Sequence record: OR699282.2
Direction: 5' to 3' (one strand)
Source of the DNA: Escherichia phage BAU.Micro_ELP-22
DNA length: 64,000 bases
Shown: positions 3,343 to 64,000 of the stretch, piece by piece
Position numbering within the stretch: position 1 is the first letter of the stretch
Layout: each line of letters begins with the position of its first letter
Notes under the pieces: generated by a model
Databases searched by the model: none
What the model saw: the letters and a program-made list of their open reading frames with translations, nothing else
What the model was told of the DNA's origin: nothing
Made by a program: the position numbers and the translations under genes

Positions 3343-5736
3343 ATGACAACTTTTACCCCACGATGGGATATAAAAGCCGATGCTCGATATATACAAGAAG
3401 GACAAGACATTCTTGTGCGTTTGAGTATCAATAAAGAAAGCACAACGGATGATAGCTATGTATTAAATGAAGATGAATACTTAGAAATGATTCTTAACAT
3501 ACAATGCTTGGATAGTTCAGGTGCTGTATTTGATCCAGAACCACATTATACTTTTTATGTTGGTAATGACGAAAATACTTTTGTTCCTATTTCAGATGGT
3601 ACAACTGGTAATAAATTAGTAAATGGTAAGCATAAGTGTAAAATCAGCAAAAATGAATTTAACTTATCTGCAAGTACTAATAGTGAAGATGTTTATTTTA
3701 TAAAAATTCATTGTAAAAATGATGGAACCTATAATAATACAGAAATTATAAATTTTTATTTACAAGCAGTAAATGTTATGTATTTTGGAAATATTTCACC
3801 AAGTGGTGTTCTAGGATTAACTGATACATCAATAACATATGATAGTCAAGAAGTTTGGGTTACACCCGGAGTTGAGATTGGTGATGACAAAAAGCTTTAT
3901 TGTATTGGTGATGTTGAGTATGGCTCCAACAGTACATTGTTCGTTCAAGGATTTGGAAGAAGACGACCTTTCATTTTGGGTACTGACATGACTACTGATA
4001 TTACACCTCGTGTCTTTTTTCCAGCATATCGTTTGATTGACATGGATATTTCTGAAGTTCCAGATAAACATATTACGAATGATTTCGCAGTATTCAAGCC
4101 AGCACAATCAACATGGCCTATTTCTGGTATAAACAAAGAAGTAAAAGTTAATATTCAAAATAGAAATGGTAATTTAATTGACACTGGAATGGTGTTCAAC
4201 CCAAATGGGCAATTATTGCAAACATTTTTATATGACTCAGATGCTTGTGATGCATATTTTAAAGTTGAGATTGTTGATATATTAAGTACATACACCGAAG
4301 AAAGTGAAAGGTTTGCTATCAATCAACGATATAAAGCATATCAAATGTGGGTTTGTCCTGAAGACATAGATACTATATATTCTATTTCAGAAAAACCACT
4401 ACCCAATCATTTATATCAATTAAAAGATAATGTTGTGTATCCATACGTAATTAGTGGTGAATACGATAATGGAACAATTAAGCCCGTTTATGATAGTAGT
4501 GATTGGATTGATTTAGGATATTATGACTCTACTCTTGGTGATAATATCATTGGTATGCAAAAAATGTTCAGGGTTTTGATAAACGCAGAAGAAGGTAATA
4601 ATATAAACTTTATTACTGATAGTGATTTAGGAACCATACATGTTGGTGAATATTTTGGAGACAGTATATATCCTAAAATTGAAACTGATAGCTCTAATCA
4701 AGTTTCGTATGTTTTAGATGGTGGTGATGACATTAGAAAGTATGGGATAGATTTGACACCAGATGGATATCTTGTAGGAACTGCATATGCCAAAAGTATT
4801 GATTTTAGTGAAAATGATGATATTAAATTATCGTTTTATGTTAAAGCATTTAGTACTGAAGGTGGTGAAGCAAGAAAAATATTTAACCTTAAGATTGTAA
4901 GAGGATTCGGACAGAATTATTTGAGTGCACATGTATTACCTTCGGTTGCATTTGAGAGAGAATGGTTTAAATGTATAAGTACTTCATCATTCACTAATCA
5001 ACTATTTTTCCGACAATCTGACAATAGATATGGTCTTCAGAAAATACCGAAGATGTTATTGAAAGAAAACTTCCTAAGTCAAACGTATCCATATACTAAC
5101 CTTTCTGATATCAAGAAAGTATTGAGAAATAGTATAATTAACCCAAATGGAACTACTATTCCAAATGGAAAATTTAAAATGGTAATGGGTAATTATAAAA
5201 TAATATCAGCACTTGACAATCAAGGTAACTTACAATATGATCTATTATATAGAGAGGTTTTACCTGAAGGTTCTTTAGTATCTGTATCCAAAAATCCACG
5301 TCAATATACTCAAATCGACAACGGTCAGCTTGGTGAATTATTTGGTTTACGACAAAATATTTTTCAGGCTATTGGTGAAGACACAACCAACTTAGTAAAA
5401 GACCCAACCGATTTACAAAATCGTGGTCTATACGTTGATGCGATACCAAGTATCAGTGATGAAATGCTTGATACGGTTCCAAGATTTATGAATCACCCAT
5501 ACATTGAAGATGGTATACAGAAAAAATTCATGCCTATCATTCCAGTTGCATATTGTCAACCAGGCAAAGGTGAAGCATTTTTCAACACTTTACTTCAGAA
5601 CAATGAACATGGTACAATGGTAGGTGTAGAGTTCGAAATCACATCGGTTGAATTCGGATACTTTTCGCATGAATCAGTGAATTATGTTTCAGATACATTT
5701 TTGATTACATTGCAAAACAATAACATAGGAGGTTAA
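3343..5736 (+). CDS. Large hypothetical protein (797 aa), possibly late/structural
   Basis: Long ORF; GGAG RBS before ATG 3343 (track start 3316 lacks RBS); late promoter box upstream; no motif recognised. Confidence 0.6.
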   Translation: MTTFTPRWDIKADARYIQEGQDILVRLSINKESTTDDSYVLNEDEYLEMILNIQCLDSSGAVFDPEPHYTFYVGNDENTFVPISDGTTGNKLVNGKHKCKISKNEFNLSASTNSEDVYFIKIHCKNDGTYNNTEIINFYLQAVNVMYFGNISPSGVLGLTDTSITYDSQEVWVTPGVEIGDDKKLYCIGDVEYGSNSTLFVQGFGRRRPFILGTDMTTDITPRVFFPAYRLIDMDISEVPDKHITNDFAVFKPAQSTWPISGINKEVKVNIQNRNGNLIDTGMVFNPNGQLLQTFLYDSDACDAYFKVEIVDILSTYTEESERFAINQRYKAYQMWVCPEDIDTIYSISEKPLPNHLYQLKDNVVYPYVISGEYDNGTIKPVYDSSDWIDLGYYDSTLGDNIIGMQKMFRVLINAEEGNNINFITDSDLGTIHVGEYFGDSIYPKIETDSSNQVSYVLDGGDDIRKYGIDLTPDGYLVGTAYAKSIDFSENDDIKLSFYVKAFSTEGGEARKIFNLKIVRGFGQNYLSAHVLPSVAFEREWFKCISTSSFTNQLFFRQSDNRYGLQKIPKMLLKENFLSQTYPYTNLSDIKKVLRNSIINPNGTTIPNGKFKMVMGNYKIISALDNQGNLQYDLLYREVLPEGSLVSVSKNPRQYTQIDNGQLGELFGLRQNIFQAIGEDTTNLVKDPTDLQNRGLYVDAIPSISDEMLDTVPRFMNHPYIEDGIQKKFMPIIPVAYCQPGKGEAFFNTLLQNNEHGTMVGVEFEITSVEFGYFSHESVNYVSDTFLITLQNNNIGG

Positions 5737-7619: not shown

Positions 7620-8573
7620 ATGACCACACTATGGACTGAAAAATATCGCCCACAATCAATGGAAGATTATGTATCAAAAAACGATGCACTACGCCAGAAA
7701 ATGGAAGAATGGATTAAGACTGGTGACATTCCACATATTGGGTTTTTTGGCCCAGCAGGAACTGGTAAAACATCTGCGATCAAAGTACTAATTAATGGAC
7801 TAGTTCAAAATGGACACCTTGATCCAAGTGATGTGACCACGCTTAACATGTCCGATGAAGGCATTGATGCTGTTCGTGACAAAATCGATGCCGCAGCAAA
7901 GCTATCATGTTTTGGTAGATATCGTATTTTTGTTCTTGAAGAAATGGAGCAGATGAACCACAAAGCACAAGGTAGTTTGAAACGTGTAATGGAAGACTAT
8001 CATGAAAATGCTCGCTTTATTTTAACAAGTAACGAACCACATAAAATTCAAAAACCTATCATTTCTCGTGTTCAAGTTATTACAATCGAAAAGCATGATA
8101 TGGAACAATTCATGACTCGAATTTATAATATTCTTCTAGCAGAAGGTGTTGATTTGAGTAGTGATGATAGTGTTGAACAAGTTCAAAAGTACATCAATGC
8201 TTCCTATCCTGATTTCCGTAAAACACTAAACGTATTGCAAAGTTCAGTTGTTGATGGTAAGCTAGTAAAACTTGAAGATAGTATTGAAAATTCAGCAGGG
8301 TATCGTACTGCAATTGTTGAAGCATTAAAGGCAGGCAACATTCGCCAAATGCGTGAACAAATTGTACAAAATATCCCTGATGATGAGATGGATGCATTTT
8401 TCTCTTACTTGTACAGAAATGCTGAAATGTTCAGTACTGATGAAATCACACTGATGAAGATTAAAGTTAAAATTCGTGATGCAGTTGTTAAGCAAGCAAC
8501 CGTATCAGATCGTGAAATGAATCTTAGTGCTTTACTGTGTGAAATTGACCTAATTTGTTCGGGGAACATGTAA
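7620..8573 (+). CDS. 44: Clamp loader large subunit (RFC-like AAA+ ATPase)
   Basis: WTEKYRP motif, Walker A GPAGTGKTS, Walker B VLEEME; AGGA RBS at internal ATG 7620. Confidence 0.85.
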   Translation: MTTLWTEKYRPQSMEDYVSKNDALRQKMEEWIKTGDIPHIGFFGPAGTGKTSAIKVLINGLVQNGHLDPSDVTTLNMSDEGIDAVRDKIDAAAKLSCFGRYRIFVLEEMEQMNHKAQGSLKRVMEDYHENARFILTSNEPHKIQKPIISRVQVITIEKHDMEQFMTRIYNILLAEGVDLSSDDSVEQVQKYINASYPDFRKTLNVLQSSVVDGKLVKLEDSIENSAGYRTAIVEALKAGNIRQMREQIVQNIPDDEMDAFFSYLYRNAEMFSTDEITLMKIKVKIRDAVVKQATVSDREMNLSALLCEIDLICSGNM

Positions 8574-9199
8574 TGAAGCCACGTTGTATAGTTTTTGATT
8601 GTGATGAAGTTCTATTGGACCATATGGGTATGCTTTCTGAGTTTGTAAAACAAACTTATAATATCACACCATCAACACCATACCCATTAGAATATGATTT
8701 ATCAGACTGGTTGGGTGTTCCTCAACCTGAAGTTAAAAAGATTCTTGAACAGTTCAACCAACAATCATATTTGTTTGGGTTGTTAAAGCCAGTCGAACCA
8801 AATACAGTTGATATTGTACAAGAGCTACGTGATCGTTTTCATAAAGAAAAATTCGTAGTACTCACAAAATGTGGTAAAAAAGGCTATGGTGAAGTTTTAC
8901 GAAATGTAAATCTAATGCGTGAATTTGGTGAAAACTGCTTTGATGAGATTATTATCATAGAAATGAATGAATCAAAGAAAGAAGCATTAGAGGATTTACA
9001 AACACGATATGATGTAAAACTAATGATTGATGATTATATCAATAATATTGAAACTGCTATGGGTCTTGGTATTCCATCAGTTATGATGGGATGTTCTCAT
9101 AATACTATGTATAAGAATCATAGTGGTTTTGAATATATCGAAAACTGGACAGAACTTAGACTGAAAATTTATTCAGTACTAGGTAAATATTACAAATAA
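8573..9199 (+). CDS. Protein translationally coupled to clamp loader; HAD-like hydrolase motifs (or divergent clamp loader small subunit)
   Basis: TAATG overlap with gene 44; FDCDEVLLD resembles HAD motif I, KLMIDDY resembles motif IV. Confidence 0.5.
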   Translation: MKPRCIVFDCDEVLLDHMGMLSEFVKQTYNITPSTPYPLEYDLSDWLGVPQPEVKKILEQFNQQSYLFGLLKPVEPNTVDIVQELRDRFHKEKFVVLTKCGKKGYGEVLRNVNLMREFGENCFDEIIIIEMNESKKEALEDLQTRYDVKLMIDDYINNIETAMGLGIPSVMMGCSHNTMYKNHSGFEYIENWTELRLKIYSVLGKYYK

Positions 9200-13805: not shown

Positions 13806-13834
13806 TTGACATATGAGTGCGTTTTTAATATAAT
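13806..13834 (+). promoter_or_regulatory. Sigma70-type early promoter
   Basis: TTGACA, 17 nt spacer, TATAAT. Confidence 0.6.
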
Positions 13835-13858
13835 CTTATTGAAAACGCACTCTTTTTA
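13815..13858 (+). terminator. Terminator hairpin whose loop contains the -10 of the next promoter
   Basis: gagtgcgtttt / aaaacgcactc 11-bp stem followed by TTTTT. Confidence 0.55.
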
Positions 13859-16229: not shown

Positions 16230-16255
16230 GGGAGTACTTTGTACTCCCCTTTTCT
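16230..16255 (+). terminator. Rho-independent terminator
   Basis: gggagtac-ttt-gtactccc hairpin followed by CTTTTCT. Confidence 0.7.
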
Positions 16256-27752: not shown

Positions 27753-27895
27753 TGGTGTATACTAATATTTTTACTGGTATTATGCGTAAATTTATTAATG
27801 GTACTGGATACGTATCTAATGACAACGGTAGTACATGGGTAAAAAATAATACGTCTGAATCTTTAGTAAAAAGTCTTCCGTATTATAAAGCTTGA
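27752..27895 (+). CDS. Small hypothetical protein
   Basis: 47 aa; TAATG coupling; below ORF-track threshold. Confidence 0.3.
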   Translation: MVYTNIFTGIMRKFINGTGYVSNDNGSTWVKNNTSESLVKSLPYYKA

Positions 27896-27920
27896 CACAT
27901 GAAAATGGAGTATGTATAAT
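27892..27920 (+). promoter_or_regulatory. Sigma70-type early promoter
   Basis: TTGACA, 17 nt spacer, TATAAT. Confidence 0.65.
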
Positions 27921-27952
27921 ACTCCTATATTAATTAAACGAGGATATACGAA

Positions 27953-31761: not shown

Positions 31762-31789
31762 TACCCAGTACTTGACTGGGTATTTTTTT
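31762..31789 (+). terminator. Rho-independent terminator
   Basis: taccca/tgggta stem, 9-nt loop containing TTGAC, followed by TTTTTTT. Confidence 0.65.
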
Positions 31790-31800
31790 AAGGAAATAAA

Positions 31801-32193
31801 ATGACTGAATCAGAACTACACGAAATGATAGATTTCATTTATGAAATGGTACAAGATAAAAATAACATCAATACAATTGCATCAGGCCCAAGACAAATTG
31901 GTAACCAAATAACATATTCTTTGTCCTTATGGTTACACCCGTGCATTAAGGTTGATTGTTTGTATTTCCGTCCTGATATTGATGCTTATTATTTTGTCAA
32001 TCATGATGCATTAATGAAACCACATAATCGTCCATTTGATGATACCTTTGTGACACACCCATTTTACCTGGCTGATTCCGAAGAAGATGAGTTTCAAAAG
32101 AACACAACGTTAAGCCCAGGTGAAATTTGCATCCCTTACGTACTTAAAGATAAAATGAATCACATCACAGAAGTTATGAAAACATGCTGGTAG
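31801..32193 (+). CDS. Hypothetical protein, divergent FFQ-family-like C-terminus
   Basis: 130 aa; SEEDEFQKNTTL. Confidence 0.5.
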   Translation: MTESELHEMIDFIYEMVQDKNNINTIASGPRQIGNQITYSLSLWLHPCIKVDCLYFRPDIDAYYFVNHDALMKPHNRPFDDTFVTHPFYLADSEEDEFQKNTTLSPGEICIPYVLKDKMNHITEVMKTCW

Positions 32194-40931: not shown

Positions 40932-41135
40932 ATAGCTTCTAGTCAGTACTGATTCCTCCTTATGTATAGAAGCTATCACTTTTTTACGTATAATGATATT
41001 ACCCTCAAATTCATTATATTCGTTACCCTCTAACAGTATCTTTTTATTCCTCTTGGATGCTGTAATTTAGAAGTTGACTTTTTAACTTCTACTGTGTTAT
41101 ACTTAAGGCTGATTCGATGAATCGGCCTTTTTTCT
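40932..41135 (+). terminator. Cluster of three hairpins, the last a probable terminator
   Basis: gatagcttcta...tagaagctatc (11-bp stem) plus T6; tagaagtt/aacttcta; ggctgattc/gaatcggcc plus T6. Confidence 0.5.
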
Positions 41136-44130: not shown

Positions 44131-44919
44131 ATGAGCAACATTTTCTTCAAAACTATTTCTTTCAAAAAAGCATCTTACTCCTACGCCTACGTTGATGGTA
44201 AAGTGCTTAATATTGTACTGGATGGTGTTGACGTACCAGTTGAATTTAAAACACATGAAGAAGCAGTTGAAGGTGCTAAAGAATTGAATTCAATTCTTAA
44301 TGGTGAAGTAAGTCAAAAACAACATGTAAAATCTGATTTAGATGTACTTTTGGAAAAAATCAAAACTGGTGAAGTATTAGAAATTTTAGACAACTGTAAT
44401 GAAAAACTTCGTAATGTAGTTAATAATGTTCGTGACCAGATTCAAGAAAAAGCACTAGAGCAAGCATTCAAACATGTATCCAAGAATGCTGAATCTCGTA
44501 TTGACGGTATGGTTAAAAATCTTGATGATGTACTATCCCATCTCTTTACTAAAGAATACGAACAAGAAGTTGAAGAAGAACCAGTAAAAGAAACTAAAAA
44601 AGAAAAACGTAGCTTTGGCTCAGGTGATGATGTGTTTGGTTTTACGAATGTCAGAACAAGTGCAGATGAACCAAAAGAAATTAGTGAGATGCTCATTGGT
44701 GACATGACAACTAAGCAGCTTCGTAATGAAATTGACAAGTTTGTAACTAGTTGTATCAAATCAGAACGTGCACAAAGTATGTTTAAAAGCATTAGTGAGA
44801 ACTTTGGTCCAGAAGCAACTGAGCAGGCACTAACTGCATTTAAAGAATTGATTTATAATGTAGCCATTAGCAATCCAGATAAAACACTTGAAGAAGTTCT
44901 ACGTGACAATTTCAAATAA
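44131..44919 (+). CDS. Hypothetical acidic protein
   Basis: 262 aa from ATG with GGAG RBS. Confidence 0.55.
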   Translation: MSNIFFKTISFKKASYSYAYVDGKVLNIVLDGVDVPVEFKTHEEAVEGAKELNSILNGEVSQKQHVKSDLDVLLEKIKTGEVLEILDNCNEKLRNVVNNVRDQIQEKALEQAFKHVSKNAESRIDGMVKNLDDVLSHLFTKEYEQEVEEEPVKETKKEKRSFGSGDDVFGFTNVRTSADEPKEISEMLIGDMTTKQLRNEIDKFVTSCIKSERAQSMFKSISENFGPEATEQALTAFKELIYNVAISNPDKTLEEVLRDNFK

Positions 44920-44931
44920 TTAGATAAAATT

Positions 44932-44961
44932 AAAGCCACTACAATGTAGTGGCTTTTTTTA
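44932..44961. terminator. Bidirectional terminator between convergent genes
   Basis: agccactac/gtagtggct hairpin flanked by A-run upstream and T7 downstream. Confidence 0.7.
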
Positions 44962-49632: not shown

Positions 49633-49706
49633 AAGTATTTGAGATAACAAATAATATGGAGTACAATGTGCTCCTAATTTAATTATCAGCTAAAAAGGAA
49701 AACATT

Positions 49707-51878: not shown

Positions 51879-51885
51879 AGAACAA

Positions 51886-51911
51886 GGGTTGGCTTATGCC
51901 AACCTTTTTTT
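51886..51911 (+). terminator. Rho-independent terminator
   Basis: ggttggc-ttat-gccaacc hairpin followed by T7. Confidence 0.75.
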
Positions 51912-59807: not shown

Positions 59808-59999
59808 ATGTTGATTTATCAAAGTGATAATATTCGTGTTATGCAGCATCCCTACTTACAAATCTTTGATGTGCAGCAGTATATGGAAGGTGATGACCCA
59901 AGAACCTATGGTCGTAAGTATGATTACTTCACTGTAAAGCAGTGTAAAAATATTAACGAAGTACGACAATTAGTTCAAGAACTTCAAAACAAAGGTTGA
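59808..59999 (+). CDS. Hypothetical protein
   Basis: 63 aa from ATG with AAGGA RBS. Confidence 0.45.
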   Translation: MLIYQSDNIRVMQHPYLQIFDVQQYMEGDDPRTYGRKYDYFTVKQCKNINEVRQLVQELQNKG

Positions 60000-60025
60000 C
60001 TTCGGTCAGCCTTTTTTGTTATAAT
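59994..60025 (+). terminator. Composite terminator-promoter element, copy 1
   Basis: ggttgac-ttcg-gtcagcc hairpin plus T6; the hairpin contains TTGACT and is followed 18 nt later by TATAAT. Confidence 0.65.
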
Positions 60026-60053
60026 TCTCTTAATAAATTAGAGGATTTTAATT

Positions 60054-60494
60054 ATGTATGTATATCGTTTTGAACTTAAATTTAGTTACATTGAACCTAA
60101 CTTAGATCCTGCACGAACTGTAGGTCCGTTTGCACGGTATTCAACTAGATACAGTACTAAAAATGGATTTGACCGTTTGTGCATGACCACACCTTCGCAA
60201 TTCCAACCAGAACCAACTGAAGATGGAATCTATTCAATCAAACGTGGCTGGGTATTTGGCTGTCAAAGTTTGAAAGATTTGTTCAGATTCTTCACTATGG
60301 ACTTGGGTAAATTGCATCGTGCTGGGTTTGCTATATCTGTATATGAAGTTCCAGACCACCATGTAGACATTGGTCGTAATCAGGTTCAGTACTATTGCGG
60401 TAGTGCTAAATTAGTTCGTATCATGTCAGTTAAGGAAGCAAAGGATGAGTTCCGACAAAGTAAAAGAGAAACACATGAGGTAATATATGGATAA
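60054..60494 (+). CDS. Hypothetical protein
   Basis: 146 aa; GAGGA RBS. Confidence 0.55.
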   Translation: MYVYRFELKFSYIEPNLDPARTVGPFARYSTRYSTKNGFDRLCMTTPSQFQPEPTEDGIYSIKRGWVFGCQSLKDLFRFFTMDLGKLHRAGFAISVYEVPDHHVDIGRNQVQYYCGSAKLVRIMSVKEAKDEFRQSKRETHEVIYG

Positions 60495-60831
60495 AACTCA
60501 AATAGAATTAAAGAAATTTGTTTCATTCTATTTTCCTGATGACCCACGTAATTCACAAAAAGATATTGAATATTATAATATCCTATCTAAACAGTTAATG
60601 AGAAAGTTTCAACAGTGTTTAACTATATTCAATACAGATGGAAGACGTAGATACCGAATCGTTTCAATGAATGATGAAAACGCAAATTTCTTTGATTACG
60701 ATGTAGTTTTTAGAGCATATAATGATGATCGTATAAAATTAAATTATGATCAAATTATACTTGACCTGAATGTTATATGTGTTATAATCACTCACGTAGC
60801 CGAACTTAATGGTTTTAAAGAATGGTATTGA
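60487..60831 (+). CDS. Hypothetical protein
   Basis: 114 aa; overlap coupling. Confidence 0.5.
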   Translation: MDKTQIELKKFVSFYFPDDPRNSQKDIEYYNILSKQLMRKFQQCLTIFNTDGRRRYRIVSMNDENANFFDYDVVFRAYNDDRIKLNYDQIILDLNVICVIITHVAELNGFKEWY

Positions 60832-60845
60832 ATAGAGGATAACAT

Positions 60846-61112
60846 ATGAAGCTTAAATTACAATATAATGGATTTACTTTACGTAATGATACTGAATTTA
60901 TTAATCGTTCTCCTGGTGCTGAACTGTTTTTACGAGAGATGAACATTCCTTTCATCATTACTACAGTGGGCGACCGTGAAGTTCTACAATATGCAGAGCA
61001 TCCGATTATTGATGTTCCTTGGTACTCTGAGCATATGTACATGGATATGGCACGTCGCTACAACTGTAAGTTCGTAGTTGAAGGTGATAAAATTACAGTC
61101 GAATTTAAATAA
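60846..61112 (+). CDS. Hypothetical protein
   Basis: 88 aa; GAGGA RBS. Confidence 0.5.
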   Translation: MKLKLQYNGFTLRNDTEFINRSPGAELFLREMNIPFIITTVGDREVLQYAEHPIIDVPWYSEHMYMDMARRYNCKFVVEGDKITVEFK

Positions 61113-61124
61113 GGTAAATTAAAA

Positions 61125-61418
61125 ATGATCAGTACTTCAGTTAATGAAAGCATCGTCGCTGACGTAGAAATGGTTAAAGAATGTGCAGATGAAACTCTTC
61201 GTGATATGTACATTAATGATTTAATTACTGAATACGGTAGTCGTGGTGTACACGAATTTATTCGTTTAAGTGGAGAGTTGATGAAAAATCGAATTCGTAT
61301 GAAGCTTAACGTACATCCAAAAGCATGGGCATTTACATTAAAATACGCAGAAGATATTGTGAATTTGCGTCGAACTGAAGTATATGAACGTTTGCACAAT
61401 GGTATGTTAGATAAATGA
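61125..61418 (+). CDS. Hypothetical protein
   Basis: 97 aa ORF. Confidence 0.5.
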   Translation: MISTSVNESIVADVEMVKECADETLRDMYINDLITEYGSRGVHEFIRLSGELMKNRIRMKLNVHPKAWAFTLKYAEDIVNLRRTEVYERLHNGMLDK

Positions 61419-61427
61419 TTGTAAAAA

Positions 61428-61457
61428 AGGAATTCTTAAATGAATTCCTTTTTGTTT
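61428..61457 (+). terminator. Rho-independent terminator
   Basis: aggaattc/gaattcct hairpin followed by TTTTT. Confidence 0.7.
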
Positions 61458-61470
61458 ATAAGGTATAGTA

Positions 61471-61692
61471 ATGAAATATATAGTACTTGTACTGATATTA
61501 TTCAGTACTGTTGTAAGTGCTAAACAAAAAGAATATGTTAAATGTATAAATTATGAAGAGAAATATGTTGAAACATATAAAAAAAGTATAATTAAAAACG
61601 TTTCGATTACTAACAGAGCAACAATCATTGTACTTAAAAATGGGTTAATTATGCTATATAAACCACACGTTAAATGTGAAATTATTAATTGA
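61471..61692 (+). CDS. Small secreted protein
   Basis: 73 aa; signal peptide ending VVSA-KQ. Confidence 0.5.
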   Translation: MKYIVLVLILFSTVVSAKQKEYVKCINYEEKYVETYKKSIIKNVSITNRATIIVLKNGLIMLYKPHVKCEIIN

Positions 61693-61699
61693 GGAAATT

Positions 61700-62272
61700 A
61701 TGAATCGTAAAGGTCGTTTTAAAGTATCAAAAAAGAACAAAAGTTCTAGGTTTAAACCTATTGTTTTAACAGTTAAATCTAACAAAGATTTAACTGCACT
61801 TAGTAAAAAGATAATTTCATCTAAGATTGAAGTATCATACGTAAATTCATTAAAATATATGAATGTCAAACCACTGGACCAACTCATTTCACTTATATTT
61901 GAACGTAATGATTTTGAGATATCAGTAGATGATTATAGAGCCTATAATGCTGGTTTCATTAATGTTACTTGTAATAAAAAACTAACTGAGTTGGAAAATT
62001 TGTCATGTATAATAAATCTAGATAAAGGTGTTGTGAAGTACCATTTTGTACATTTCACTAATATCAATAATGGAATGGGTGTACAATCCAGACCTATAGT
62101 GCCTACGTGTGATGTTACTAAATTAGCAAAGCTCAATGATGAAGAATATTTTCAAGAAAGCATTGTAACTGAGCATTTAGATGATATAATAGCTACTTAC
62201 AAAGAATGCATATGGGTGTTGAATGCTATAAAACCTAAATTGTGTTTAATGAATATTGTTCGTGATTTATGA
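61700..62272 (+). CDS. C-terminal FFQ-x-S motif family member (variant)
   Basis: 190 aa from ATG with GAGGAAA RBS; DEEYFQESIVTEH. Confidence 0.5.
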   Translation: MNRKGRFKVSKKNKSSRFKPIVLTVKSNKDLTALSKKIISSKIEVSYVNSLKYMNVKPLDQLISLIFERNDFEISVDDYRAYNAGFINVTCNKKLTELENLSCIINLDKGVVKYHFVHFTNINNGMGVQSRPIVPTCDVTKLAKLNDEEYFQESIVTEHLDDIIATYKECIWVLNAIKPKLCLMNIVRDL

Positions 62273-62285
62273 ATGGGGAATCGTA

Positions 62286-62729
62286 ATGAGTTGGGTAAAT
62301 GTTAATAGTATTGAACTTAACGAACAAGATATTTTTGCATTTGTAAATTTAACTAATAACACAGTACTAAAAGGGCGTTTGTTCAGTGCTAGTGATGGGT
62401 ACAAATGGATCTCTTTGATGGATGATAGTGGTGTGATTTATAATGTAATGCAATTACCCCAATGGGTATATAGTAACACTGCTGACGATGTTCTTACCGC
62501 AGTTATGCGTGAGTTTGAAAAACTCCCAGGTGGTGATATCAAAAACAAAGTTTTTAATGCAGAACGTAAAAATTATACAGCACAGCAATTGGAATCCCTT
62601 GCCATTGCTGCTTATCAAGCTGCTATTAAGAAGCCAGAGTGCGTTATTCTTAAGTATGTACCAGACTTAAAACTTACGTTGGAAGACATGGATGCATTCA
62701 TTTTTACATCTGAACTTGATCAGTACTAA
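62286..62729 (+). CDS. Hypothetical protein
   Basis: 147 aa from ATG with GGGGAA RBS. Confidence 0.5.
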   Translation: MSWVNVNSIELNEQDIFAFVNLTNNTVLKGRLFSASDGYKWISLMDDSGVIYNVMQLPQWVYSNTADDVLTAVMREFEKLPGGDIKNKVFNAERKNYTAQQLESLAIAAYQAAIKKPECVILKYVPDLKLTLEDMDAFIFTSELDQY

Positions 62730-62738
62730 TTTAACTTT

Positions 62739-62766
62739 GGGACAACCATTCTTATTATGATATAAT
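62739..62766 (+). promoter_or_regulatory. Early-type promoter
   Basis: GGGACA -35-like, 16 nt spacer, GATATAAT. Confidence 0.5.
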
Positions 62767-62800
62767 GTTTTATGTCATTCGATATAAATGACAACGGAAC

Positions 62801-62808
62801 TATAAATA
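62801..62808 (+). promoter_or_regulatory. T4-type late promoter box TATAAATA
   Basis: Exact TATAAATA 37 nt upstream of the 62845 start. Confidence 0.5.
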
Positions 62809-62844
62809 TTATAGTAAAATTTATCTCTTATAGGAGTTATAAAA

Positions 62845-63228
62845 ATGGTTGATAAATGGAATAAGAAAGATCCATCACATGATGTTGATATTTCTGGTCT
62901 AGACAATGCACATAAGCACAAGTATCTAGATTCACTAGGTCTTCTAAAACCAGACCAAAGTCTTGCACATGATCGTCCATCCCGTGAAAAAGCATTTAGC
63001 CTAGAATCACTAGGTCATGAGCTTAATCGTGTGTTTGAGGATCACCCAATCTATGTACGTGATATTATCGAGAAACTTAAAGTAACTCCTAAAGAGCACT
63101 TTAAAGCAACTGTACACTCTGCATTCCGTGCATTACATGAATCTCTAAAGAAAACTCACAATCTTCGTAAAATTCATGATGAAATCGTGAATGCTATCGA
63201 AAGTGAAAAACATAAGTTCAAGAAGTAA
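62845..63228 (+). CDS. Hypothetical protein, probably late-expressed
   Basis: 127 aa; TAGGAG RBS; contains KYLDSLGLLKPDQ motif shared with the 63475 ORF. Confidence 0.55.
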   Translation: MVDKWNKKDPSHDVDISGLDNAHKHKYLDSLGLLKPDQSLAHDRPSREKAFSLESLGHELNRVFEDHPIYVRDIIEKLKVTPKEHFKATVHSAFRALHESLKKTHNLRKIHDEIVNAIESEKHKFKK

Positions 63229-63234
63229 TAAAAA

Positions 63235-63260
63235 GGGTTGACTAAGGTCAGCCCTTTGTT
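63235..63260 (+). terminator. Composite terminator-promoter element, copy 2
   Basis: gggttgac-taag-gtcagccc hairpin plus T-rich tail; contains TTGACT. Confidence 0.6.
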
Positions 63261-63296
63261 GTATCATAACTTCTCAATATAACTGAGGTATCATAT

Positions 63297-63410
63297 ATGC
63301 AAGGTTTAAAATTTGTAGTTGCTGCACTCATCGCCGCAGTACTGGTTGGTGGTGTATTCTATGTAGTGGATCAAAAAGTAAATCCACCTGCACAAGAACA
63401 ATCTACGTAA
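63297..63410 (+). CDS. Small membrane peptide
   Basis: 37 aa; GAGG RBS; hydrophobic core VVAALIAAVLVGGVFYVV. Confidence 0.4.
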   Translation: MQGLKFVVAALIAAVLVGGVFYVVDQKVNPPAQEQST

Positions 63411-63418
63411 CAAAATAA

Positions 63419-63440
63419 GGTTGACTTCGGTCAGCCTTTT
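63419..63440 (+). terminator. Composite terminator-promoter element, copy 3
   Basis: ggttgac-ttcg-gtcagcc hairpin plus TTTT; near-identical to copy 1. Confidence 0.65.
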
Positions 63441-63448
63441 CTTTATAC

Positions 63449-63456
63449 TATAAATA
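63449..63456 (+). promoter_or_regulatory. T4-type late promoter box TATAAATA
   Basis: Exact TATAAATA 19 nt upstream of the 63475 start. Confidence 0.5.
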
Positions 63457-63474
63457 TAGACATAGAGAAAAAAA

Positions 63475-64000
63475 ATGAAATCTATGGAGAGAAATCAAAT
63501 GCCAAGTAATTTTACTGATAAAAATGGTGGTAACATGGCTGGTCACTCTGATAAATGGAGTGAACGCAACCGCCGTCCAAATAGTTATCAAGCAGGTCAA
63601 GGTTCACGTGGGTCACGTAATCAAGGAACTGGTCTAGCTGGTAAAGCAAACGCAGAAGCAGGTGAAGTTAAGAGTACTGAGAACATGACTGAGCTAGAAA
63701 AGCTACGTTATGTTAATTCATTGGGACTTCTTAATGCTACACAAAAACAACGTCTAGCTGATATGGAACGTGAAGAAAAAGAAAAATCTGCTCCTGCTAA
63801 AGAAGAACCAAAACAAGAAGCACCAAAGGCGGTTAACCCTGTCAAAGAACTGTCGGATAAGTTAGGTAAGATTTTTGCTAATAAACCACAACTTATCCAA
63901 GGTATTGTGAAAGAATTGCAATCTGTACCTAAAGAAGAATTAAAAGTCAAAGCACAAGCTGTACTTGATGCAATGAGTGGAAATACCAGTACTGAACCAA
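63475..64000 (+). CDS. Hypothetical protein, 3' partial, probably late-expressed
   Basis: Open frame from ATG 63475 to window end (175+ codons, no stop); absent from ORF track because no stop in window; RYVNSLGLLNATQ motif. Confidence 0.55.
   Translation, partial: MKSMERNQMPSNFTDKNGGNMAGHSDKWSERNRRPNSYQAGQGSRGSRNQGTGLAGKANAEAGEVKSTENMTELEKLRYVNSLGLLNATQKQRLADMEREEKEKSAPAKEEPKQEAPKAVNPVKELSDKLGKIFANKPQLIQGIVKELQSVPKEELKVKAQAVLDAMSGNTSTEP

What the first reader, a model, noticed from the sequence alone, without database searches (positions are those of the whole stretch)
59994..63440. Three copies of a composite terminator-promoter element built around GGTTGACTTCGGTCAGCC
At 59994, 63235 and 63419 a hairpin plus T-run contains the -35 hexamer TTGACT in its 5' arm and is followed at correct spacing by a -10-like hexamer (TATAAT, TATCAT, TATACT). 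The same DNA therefore terminates the upstream transcript and initiates the next. Terminators at 31762 and 13815 show the same overlap logic.
Basis: seen in the sequence. Interest (0 to 1): 0.55.

Follow-up and report, generated by a model that had tools for sequence, protein, structure and literature searches.

The report
Composite terminator-promoter cassettes (PeSL-type) in jumbo coliphage
Three near-identical 45-base elements in the early-gene region of a 350-kb E. coli phage each combine a transcription stop hairpin with a start signal for the next gene; this kind of element is already known from T4-like phages, and here its copies also mark where small genes have been gained, lost or swapped between related phages.

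Summary
GGTTGAC-N4-GTCAGCC occurs at 59994, 63236 and 63419 (0.01 expected by chance). Each copy is a stable, strand-specific RNA hairpin plus T-run with TTGACT in its 5' arm and a -10-like hexamer 17-18 bp downstream.

The window is from an Asteriusvirus jumbo coliphage (121Q/PBECO4 group). Two more copies lie just past the window end, and there are 7-9 per genome.

The dual terminator/promoter reading is well supported by sequence and comparison:
- Terminators with TTGAC in the 5' arm carry a correctly spaced -10 in 84% of cases; other terminators do so in 8-12% (odds ratio 60, p = 7e-22).
- The loops are enriched in UNCG and GNRA tetraloops.

The elements match PeSLs (promoter-early stem-loops), composite terminator/promoter cassettes described in T4-like phages (Arbiol 2010; Comeau 2014). 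As those papers predict, gene-cassette indels between Asteriusvirus relatives have breakpoints inside the hairpins. UE-S1 and ph0011 lack the 37-aa gene between copies 2 and 3 and the three genes between copies 4 and 5, leaving one chimeric element at each junction.

I found no paper naming PeSLs in Rak2-like or Asteriusvirus phages, so this is a new member of a known kind. The side claim for 31762 fails. The 13815 site is a different PeSL subclass. No transcript data were available.

The parts
59986..60025 (+). Copy 1 of the composite element. A-rich tract 59986-59993; hairpin 59991-60014 (core GGTTGAC 59994-60000, loop TTCG 60001-60004, GTCAGCC 60005-60011); -35 TTGACT 59996-60001; T-run 60012-60017; extended -10 TGtTATAAT 60017-60025. 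The predicted start of transcription is near 60032.
   Evidence: -13.4 kcal/mol, z = -3.9. ARNOLD terminator in G17.
59808..59999 (+). Upstream 63-aa gene. Its TGA stop codon (59997-59999) is part of the TTGAC of copy 1.
   Evidence: phrog_6957. Homologues in RB49-type, rV5-type and T7-type phages.
60054..60494 (+). 146-aa gene served by copy 1. Shine-Dalgarno AGAGGA at 60040-60045.
   Evidence: phrog_1106, unknown function.
63228..63267 (+). Copy 2. Hairpin 63232-63257 (GGGTTGAC / loop TAAG / GTCAGCCC); -35 TTGACT 63238-63243; short T-run 63255-63257; -10 TATCAT 63262-63267.
   Evidence: -17.3 kcal/mol, z = -5.4. ARNOLD terminator in G17.
63297..63410 (+). 37-aa hydrophobic peptide gene that forms a one-gene cassette between copies 2 and 3. 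It is absent from UE-S1 and ph0011, replaced in UB, and accompanied by additional genes in WPEC3 and EC.P1.
   Evidence: phrog_35037.
63411..63449 (+). Copy 3. Hairpin 63417-63438 (GGTTGAC 63419-63425, loop TTCG 63426-63429, GTCAGCC 63430-63436); -35 TTGACT 63421-63426; T-run from 63437; -10 TATACT 63444-63449.
   Evidence: -12.4 kcal/mol, z = -5.0. ARNOLD terminator in G17.
63499..64000 (+). Start of the roughly 1.5-kb gene annotated as a virion structural protein, served by copy 3. It runs off the window. Copies 4 and 5 follow it in related genomes.
62845..63228 (+). 127-aa gene annotated as a virion structural protein, terminated by copy 2.
   Evidence: phrog_16530.
13806..13857 (+). Composite element of a different geometry. 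A perfect promoter TTGACA (13806-13811) N17 TATAAT (13829-13834) has its -10 in the loop of a 16-bp hairpin (13815-13852) followed by TTTTT (13853-13857). Transcription from this promoter would start inside the hairpin and escape it, whereas upstream transcripts would terminate.
   Evidence: -22.1 kcal/mol, z = -8.7.

Best explanation
These are PeSL-type regulatory cassettes: intergenic modules of about 45-100 bp in the early region of a host-RNA-polymerase-dependent jumbo phage.

Reading 5' to 3', each has five parts:
- An A-tract. This is an UP-element-like tract that also forms the 5' extension of the stem.
- A GC-clamped hairpin whose 5' arm is the -35 hexamer TTGAC(T).
- A T-run that serves both as the terminator U-tract and as promoter spacer.
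- A -10 hexamer 17-18 bp after the -35.
- A Shine-Dalgarno sequence and start codon.

In RNA made from upstream, the hairpin plus U-run acts as an intrinsic terminator. In duplex DNA, sigma-70 holoenzyme, or possibly the phage's own RpoD-like sigma, uses the same bases as a promoter and starts about 7 nt past the -10. The new transcript therefore lacks the hairpin. Each small early gene or gene group becomes an insulated transcription unit.

Because about 40 nt are nearly identical between copies, the copies also serve as substrates for homologous recombination, which deletes, inserts or swaps the cassettes lying between them.

Shown here: sequence anatomy, RNA foldability, -35/-10 coupling, loop bias, and breakpoints inside the elements. 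Inferred: actual termination and initiation in vivo, and the recombination mechanism.
For: Anatomy and repetition:
- Three copies in the window, 0.01 expected by chance.
- Five copies within 6.2 kb in G17.
- 7-9 places per Asteriusvirus genome, and 624 places in 181 phage records.

Terminator side:
- RNA folding of -12.4 to -17.3 kcal/mol, z = -3.9 to -5.4, with a weak opposite strand.
- ARNOLD annotations in the G17 record.
- 12 of 39 loops are UNCG (0.6 expected) and 5 of 39 are GNRA (1.2 expected).

Promoter side:
- Of 38 non-redundant T-run-positive hairpins from 29 viral contigs, 35 have a -10 at spacer 17 or 18 and none at 16. The information profile shows a second conserved block at the -10.
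- In control terminators without TTGAC in the arm, the rate is 8-12% at 4 of 6 or better and 4% at 5 of 6 or better. With TTGAC it is 84% and 70%. Fisher odds ratio 60, p = 7e-22.
- The -10 hexamers of copies 1, 2 and 3 differ and lie in flanks that look unrelated to one another. They therefore do not appear to be simple copies of one duplicated sequence.
- In phage A4 the orthologue of the degenerate copy 4 has TATAAT.
- TTGAC is invariant in all orthologues, while the 3' arm toggles GTCAG/GTCAA, and both pair in RNA.

Context:
- 70 strong sigma-70-type promoters on the + strand against 15 on the - strand. 8 of 19 + strand terminators overlap or adjoin one, against 11% expected, P = 6e-4.
- The gene after copy 5 is a T7 gp0.7-type kinase, an early function.
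- The related phage PA5oct uses host RNA polymerase with TTGAC/TATAATA promoters (PMC7318152).

Recombination:
- The deletions in UE-S1 and ph0011 have flanking alignments that overlap by 41-50 nt on a single chimeric element.
- 7 of 35 unique breakpoints lie within 10 nt of an element, against 3.7% expected, P = 2.5e-4.

Precedent: PeSLs were defined as composite terminator/promoters, with a subclass in which the stem-loop overlaps the -35. Reporter assays showed both functions, and indels were found at PeSLs (PMC2839356; PMC4122927).
Against: - There is no 5'-end or 3'-end transcript mapping for any Asteriusvirus in the literature I could search, so neither activity is demonstrated here.
- Copy 2 has a short, interrupted T-run (TTTGTTG) and may terminate weakly.
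- Copy 4, outside the window, has only GTAAAT/TAAATA at the -10 position, so it is probably terminator-only in this strain.
- The stop codon of the upstream gene lies inside the 5' arm of copy 1. A terminating ribosome could therefore interfere with hairpin formation.
- The generic promoter scan is not enriched over shuffles in this AT-rich DNA.
- Copies within a genome are paralogues, and contigs may share ancestry, so the counts are not fully independent.
- About four-fifths of the unique breakpoint positions in the region are not at these elements. The UB replacement involves an endonuclease gene, which offers another mobility mechanism.
Confidence: 0.8

Rival explanations
1. These are plain intrinsic terminators that spread by duplication. 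The TTGAC in the stem and the downstream TA-rich hexamers are accidents of AT-rich intergenic DNA and do not initiate transcription.
For: All three are predicted terminators. Sigma-70-like matches are as common in shuffled sequence as in the real region. Copy 4 has no good -10. The copies are paralogues, so a shared TTGAC counts as one event.
Against: A -10 at spacer 17-18 accompanies 84% of TTGAC-armed terminators but only 8-12% of other terminators in the same genomes. The spacer is never 16. The -10 hexamers sit in flanks that look unrelated between copies. TTGAC never mutates in orthologues, although the stem could be kept by compensatory change. Experimental precedent exists for PeSL promoters (PMC2839356).
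Confidence: 0.08
2. These are promoters only. The inverted repeat is a DNA-level feature, such as an operator for a phage or host regulator or a recombinase site, and does not terminate transcription.
For: The PeSL authors themselves speculated that a specific DNA-binding protein might recognise the conserved stem (PMC2839356). Some relatives of the element in other contigs lack a T-run, for example L017. Perfect palindromes are common.
Against: An A-tract/T-run flanks most copies. UNCG and GNRA tetraloops are enriched about 20-fold and 4-fold, and these matter only in RNA. The G.U wobble keeps the sense-strand RNA hairpin while weakening the antisense one. The elements follow stop codons directly.
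Confidence: 0.05
3. These are ends of an actively mobile element, with a dedicated recombinase or homing endonuclease moving the cassettes. The regulatory look would then be secondary.
For: Cassette gain, loss and replacement occur exactly at the elements. The UB replacement carries a phrog_681 endonuclease gene whose homologue in RaK2 is also preceded by the element. The same core occurs in phages of different families.
Against: No recombinase is linked to the cassettes. Most cassette genes are tiny ORFs of unknown function. About 40 nt of identity should be enough for homologous recombination of the T4 type, which needs under 50 bp (PMC2839356). A relative, Sharanji, is annotated with a recombinase A (PMC11895373). 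The element's features are fully explained by transcription signals.
Confidence: 0.05

Closest known systems
PeSLs (promoter-early stem-loops) of T4-like phages: phi1/RB49 (Arbiol et al. 2010, PMC2839356), and PST/T4 and nt-1/KVP40 (Comeau et al. 2014, PMC4122927)
   Same: Intergenic composite of an AT-rich tract, a sigma-70-type -35/N17/-10, a terminator stem-loop, then a Shine-Dalgarno sequence and ATG. One published subclass has the stem-loop overlapping the -35. The nt-1/KVP40 consensus (A3-4 G3-loop-C3 T3-4 with TTGYVH-N17-TAWWAT) matches these copies. The very same 18-nt core occurs in a contig of KVP40's size (244,834 bp) and in KVP40-type vibriophage records. In both cases the elements cluster among small ORFs of unknown function and sit at indel breakpoints between close relatives.
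   Different: The host lineage differs: Asteriusvirus and Rak2-like jumbo phages of about 350 kb, not Straboviridae. I found no publication naming PeSLs in these phages. Mini-circles and reporter activities have not been tested for these copies. In this cluster the hairpin core is nearly invariant, whereas phi1/RB49 PeSLs have more varied stems.
RpoD-like early promoters with an UP-like element, and separately listed rho-independent terminators, in Rak2-like phage CBB (PMC5259590)
   Same: Same phage supergroup. Sigma-70-type promoters preceded by an A-rich element and concentrated in a region of short hypothetical ORFs. CBB carries 6 copies of this element by BLAST.
   Different: That paper treats promoters and terminators as separate lists. 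It does not describe their physical overlap or any role in cassette exchange.
Ordinary intrinsic (rho-independent) terminators with UUCG tetraloops
   Same: A GC-rich stem, a stable tetraloop and a U-run. ARNOLD predicts them as such.
   Different: The 5' arm encodes a consensus -35, and a -10 follows at promoter spacing far more often than after other terminators.

Membership tests
PeSL (promoter-early stem-loop) cassettes | Intergenic position between the stop codon of one gene and the Shine-Dalgarno/ATG of the next | tested here: met
   Copies 2 and 3 lie wholly between genes. The copy 1 hairpin overlaps the last 6 nt, including the stop codon, of the upstream gene. SD and ATG follow 29-50 nt after the -10.
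PeSL (promoter-early stem-loop) cassettes | Sigma-70-like promoter (-35, about N17, -10) | tested here: met
   TTGACT-18-TATAAT, TTGACT-18-TATCAT and TTGACT-17-TATACT, scoring 10-11 of 12. The -10 coupling is highly non-random. Met at sequence level only; promoter activity was not measured.
PeSL (promoter-early stem-loop) cassettes | AT-rich tract upstream of the -35 | tested here: met
   A-runs lie immediately 5' of the GG clamp in all copies, and the tract is conserved in the cross-contig profile.
PeSL (promoter-early stem-loop) cassettes | Stable stem-loop able to act as terminator or attenuator, placed in one of five positions relative to the promoter (here overlapping the -35) | tested here: met
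   -12.4 to -17.3 kcal/mol, a T-run, ARNOLD predictions and UNCG/GNRA loops. The -35-overlap subclass is named in PMC2839356. Termination itself was not measured.
PeSL (promoter-early stem-loop) cassettes | Repeated in the genome and concentrated in plastic regions rich in small ORFs of unknown function | tested here: met
   Five copies within 6.2 kb among genes of 37 to about 500 aa that are mostly of unknown function. 7-9 copies per genome.
PeSL (promoter-early stem-loop) cassettes | Indels or replacements between close relatives have boundaries at the elements, leaving chimeric elements | tested here: met
   In UE-S1 and ph0011, two deletions each have 41-50 nt overlaps on a single chimeric element. 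WPEC3, EC.P1, UB and A4 show different cassette content. Enrichment P = 2.5e-4.
PeSL (promoter-early stem-loop) cassettes | Formation of excised mini-circles during infection | not testable with these tools
   This needs inverse PCR or long-read sequencing of infected cells, as in PMC2839356.
PeSL (promoter-early stem-loop) cassettes | Occurs in T4-type phages (the taxonomic scope of the original description) | tested here: not met
   The window is Asteriusvirus, which is outside Straboviridae. This criterion describes where PeSLs were first found. It is not a mechanistic requirement, so I file the elements as PeSL-type in a new lineage.
Intrinsic (rho-independent) terminator | GC-rich hairpin followed directly by a U-run on the transcribed strand, downstream of a gene | tested here: met
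   Copy 2 has only TTTGTTG, so it is probably the weakest.

The most novel reading that the evidence does not exclude
The same hairpin core (GGTTGAC-N4-GTCAG/ACC with its flanking A- and T-runs and -10) may be a shared docking site through which early-gene cassettes move between otherwise unrelated large phages: Asteriusvirus, RaK2-like, CBB-like and Erwinia jumbo phages, and KVP40-type T4-like vibriophages. On this reading its wide distribution reflects horizontal spread of PeSL cassettes, for example as mini-circles, and not independent convergence on an optimal terminator/promoter design.
Probability: 0.12. Interest if true: 0.6.

Novelty: new member of a known kind. Interest (0 to 1): 0.38.

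Why it matters
It shows how a 350-kb phage packs its host-takeover region into insulated single-gene or few-gene transcription units using about 45 bp per junction.

It extends PeSL-mediated modular shuffling from T4-like phages to the Rak2-like and Asteriusvirus jumbo phages, several of which are being developed for therapy. It also gives concrete, testable examples of cassette loss, gain and replacement at these junctions.

Practical uses:
- Annotation pipelines list these sites only as terminators and therefore miss the promoters.
- The elements predict where strain-specific accessory genes will sit.
- They are compact, portable terminator-plus-promoter parts for phage engineering.

Tried and rejected
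1. The T.G wobble as a directionality device. I supposed that GTCAGCC instead of GTCAACC is selected to keep the promoter and terminator one-directional. Rejected: the perfect palindrome GGTTGAC-N4-GTCAACC is just as common among T-run-positive sites (50 of 118 against 38 of 128), and 36 of those 50 have a spaced -10.

2. The 31762 hairpin as a terminator-promoter. Rejected: the -10 position is AATAAA, directly abutting the start codon.

3. The 63-aa gene upstream of copy 1 as a PeSL-borne cassette shared with RB49/phi1. The gene is shared with Krischvirus, rV5-like and T7-like phages. However, the RB49 copy lies in a tight operon without flanking stem-loop promoters, so there is no evidence of PeSL-mediated transfer.

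4. Cassette genes between copies 2-3 and 4-5 as shared with the other contigs that carry the element. No nucleotide or translated matches were found, except the UB endonuclease cassette in RaK2.

5. Pfam gave nothing useful for the cassette proteins. PHROGs gave only an endonuclease (UB), a gp0.7-type kinase and 'virion structural protein'.

6. Literature searches for PeSL or composite elements in Asteriusvirus or Rak2-like phages found none.

7. The generic promoter/terminator scan is uninformative in this AT-rich DNA, since counts equal the shuffles. It was replaced by matched controls.

8. I did not map all 7-9 copies on a complete genome. Only the five-copy cluster was examined.

Full report
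**Identity of the window**

The last 5 kb is 99.5% identical to Escherichia phages SHEFM2K, JP4 and E9.1, and 98% identical to PBECO4 and 121Q. These are jumbo phages of about 350 kb in the genus Asteriusvirus, part of the Rak2-like group. The region is a run of small + strand genes, nearly all annotated as hypothetical.

**Check of the observation**

GGTTGACTTCGGTCAGCC occurs exactly at 59994 and 63419. At 63236 it has two changes, both in the loop. Chance would give 0.01 matches.

Each copy has the same order of parts: A-run, GG, TTGAC, a 4-nt loop, GTCAG, CC, T-run, then a -10-like hexamer. The hexamers are TATAAT, TATCAT and TATACT at spacers of 18, 18 and 17.

As RNA the + strand folds at -13.4, -17.3 and -12.4 kcal/mol (z = -3.9 to -5.4). 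The - strand gives only -8.7 kcal/mol (z = -1.9), because a T.G wobble becomes a C.A mismatch.

The G17 GenBank record already marks all three as ARNOLD terminators. It also marks two further copies just beyond the window end. One of those, copy 5, has TGtTATGAT. The other, copy 4, has no usable -10.

**Is the promoter half more than AT-rich noise?**

A generic sigma-70 scan is not enriched over shuffles here, so I built matched controls.

Most hits without a T-run look like chance matches in coding sequence. There were 38 non-redundant hits with a T-run, from 29 contigs. They share an A-run upstream and a second conserved block exactly at -10:
- 35 of 38 have xAxxxT matching at least 4 of 6.
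- 30 of 38 match at least 5 of 6.
- The spacer is 17 in 23 cases, 18 in 12, and never 16.

In the same loci and in the window, terminators without TTGAC in the 5' arm have such a hexamer at the equivalent offset in 8-12% of cases, and in 4% at 5 of 6 or better. Terminators with TTGAC reach 84% and 70%. The odds ratio is 60 and Fisher p = 7e-22. The -35 in the stem and the -10 after the T-run are therefore coupled. A pure terminator does not predict this.

**Is the hairpin half an RNA feature?**

Among T-run-positive elements, 12 of 39 loops are UNCG (0.6 expected) and 5 of 39 are GNRA (1.2 expected). Copies 1 and 3 have C(UUCG)G. Stable tetraloops matter only in RNA. This supports a terminator and argues against a DNA operator.

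**Wider context in the window**

There are 70 strong sigma-70-type promoters (at least 10 of 12) on the + strand, 10 of them perfect, and 15 on the - strand. 8 of 19 + strand terminators overlap or adjoin such a promoter, against 11% expected (P = 6e-4). The geometries differ:
- Hairpin just upstream of the -35: 11340/11381.
- Hairpin over the -35: the three copies.
- Hairpin over the -10: 13806-13857, 27892 and 49639.
- Hairpin immediately after the -10: 41074 and 44903.

A transcript from its perfect promoter would begin inside the hairpin and escape it. The 31762 example fails because its -10 position is AATAAA, directly abutting the ATG at 31801.

**What it is**

This anatomy matches the PeSLs (promoter-early stem-loops) of T4-like phages, described as 'small, composite terminator/promoter sequences'.

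The defining paper (PMC2839356) reports the following:
- It lists five subclasses by stem-loop position, including overlap with the -35 or the -10.
- It shows with lacZ fusions that a PeSL promoter is very strong (about 13,000 Miller units).
- It shows that a PeSL stem-loop terminates about as well as rrnB T1.
- It links PeSLs to indels between phi1 and RB49 and to excised mini-circles.

The follow-up paper (PMC4122927) gives the nt-1/KVP40 consensus as A3-4 G3-loop-C3 T3-4 with TTGYVH-N17-TAWWAT. That is the pattern seen here. The identical 18-nt core occurs in a contig of KVP40's size and in KVP40-type vibriophage records.

**Test of the PeSL prediction**

I compared nine relatives with G17 across the five-copy stretch.
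- UE-S1 and ph0011 lack the 37-aa gene between copies 2 and 3, and the three genes between copies 4 and 5. At each junction a single element remains. It has the left flank of one copy and the right flank of the other, and the flanking alignments overlap by 41-50 nt on it. The crossovers therefore lie inside the element.
- WPEC3 and EC.P1 carry 730 and 1364 nt between copies 2 and 3, where G17 has 134.
- A4 has elements at two additional sites, and its copy 4 orthologue has TATAAT.
- EC.P1 joins the copy 3 hairpin to a different -10 and a different gene.
- The extra gene in WPEC3 at another site is flanked by hairpins of the same design with other stems, such as AAAATTGATC...GATCAATTTT followed by TATTCT.

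Overall, 7 of 35 unique breakpoints lie within 10 nt of an element, against 3.7% expected (P = 2.5e-4). This count is conservative because it includes equal-length divergence gaps.

Across all orthologues TTGAC never changes, while the 3' arm alternates between GTCAG and GTCAA.

**Exceptions**
- Many breakpoints are elsewhere, notably a recurrent in-gene indel in the structural-protein gene.
- The UB replacement carries a phrog_681 endonuclease gene. Its RaK2 homologue is also preceded by the element, so homing may explain that event.

**Distribution**

A 44-nt query finds 624 places in 181 phage records:
- Asteriusvirus: 7-9 per genome.
- RaK2, K64-1 and Muenster: 7-8.
- CBB: 6.
- Erwinia phage Hallingskeid: 9.
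- KVP40-type vibriophages: 2-3.
- Also Aeromonas phage 65 and others.

The perfect-palindrome variant is equally widespread. This rejects my idea that the wobble enforces directionality. It also suggests that building a terminator stem from a -35 hexamer is a common design.

**Prior knowledge for this lineage**

I found no paper naming PeSLs or composite elements in Asteriusvirus or Rak2-like phages. CBB's paper lists RpoD-like promoters with UP elements among short early ORFs, and lists terminators separately. The Sharanji, UE-S1 and fEgEco12 papers do not discuss promoters. PA5oct, a distant clade member, uses host RNA polymerase and TTGAC/TATAATA promoters by RNA-seq.

**Mechanism and status of each step**

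Shown by sequence and computation:
- the repeat and its anatomy;
- strand-specific RNA hairpins;
- -35/-10 coupling;
- tetraloop bias;
- co-orientation with the genes;
- chimeric junctions and breakpoint enrichment.

Inferred from established knowledge of intrinsic termination and sigma-70 promoters, and from the PeSL experiments in phi1/RB49:
- Upstream transcripts end in the T-run.
- RNA polymerase initiates about 7 nt past the -10, so the new mRNA lacks the hairpin.
- The A-tract resembles a proximal UP subsite.
- About 40 nt of identity lets the phage's recombination system exchange cassettes.

Untested: activity in vivo, which sigma factor is used, whether copy 2 (short T-run) and copy 1 (stop codon inside the stem) terminate efficiently, and mini-circles.

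**Verdict**

The element class is already known. Its presence and recombinational role in this jumbo-phage lineage appear to be undescribed. I rate it a new member of a known kind, of moderate interest.

Noticed in passing
window 1-64000, both strands: Strong strand bias of sigma-70-type promoters: 70 sites scoring at least 10 of 12 on the + strand (10 of them perfect TTGACA-N16-18-TATAAT) against 15 on the - strand. The whole window looks like a host-RNA-polymerase early region with about one promoter per 0.9 kb.
   Followed up: partly
window 16230-16248, 27907-27925, 49658-49674: A second hairpin family built on GGAGTA...TACTCC. At 27892 and 49639 the -10 hexamer of a strong promoter lies inside this hairpin (stem-loop over the -10).
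   Followed up: partly
window 41074-41129 and 44903-44956: Promoter-like sites (TTGACT-18-TATACT and GTGACA-16-TAAAAT) whose -10 is followed immediately by an 11-bp terminator hairpin plus T-run. The predicted transcription start would fall inside the 5' arm.
   Followed up: no
window 51884-51907; L126 (WPEC3) 3700-3735: Terminator hairpins with the related stem GGGTTGG...CCAACC(C) but no usable -10. These may be degraded 'half' elements of the kind described for nt-1 and PST. In WPEC3 one of them flanks an inserted 237-nt gene.
   Followed up: partly
window 59997-59999: The TGA stop codon of the 63-aa gene is the TGA within the -35 TTGAC of copy 1. Translation therefore ends inside the 5' arm of the terminator stem, which may couple termination efficiency to translation.
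   Followed up: no
window 59808-59999: The 63-aa protein (phrog_6957) has homologues in RB49-type Krischvirus (44-46% identity), rV5-like phages, T7-like phages (next to the ligase gene) and an Acinetobacter phage. It is a widely shared small early gene. In RB49 it lies beside the AsiA-MotA region.
   Followed up: partly
L123 (phage UB) 4968-5810, replacing window 63265-63490: UB has a 257-aa phrog_681 endonuclease gene in place of the 37-aa gene and copy 3. A 64%-identical homologue preceded by the same hairpin is in RaK2 (L115), and DNA matches occur in about 180 Salmonella and E. coli phage records. It is probably a homing endonuclease.
   Followed up: partly
L001 (G17) 8378-8674, inside the structural-protein gene that starts at window 63499: A recurrent in-frame-looking indel of about 290 nt within this gene is shared by phAPEC6, UB, UE-S1 and ph0011. 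The Salmonella SD phages carry further internal deletions. This variable segment is unrelated to the hairpins.
   Followed up: no
window 62845-63228 and 63499-64000: Two genes annotated as virion structural proteins sit in this early-promoter region, flanked by the composite elements. This recalls the T4 internal-protein locus, which the PeSL authors cite as a shuffling hotspot.
   Followed up: no
window 63469-63476: The A-run in the leader downstream of copy 3 has 8 A here and 6 in G17 and phAPEC6. It is a homopolymer length polymorphism or a sequencing artefact.
   Followed up: no
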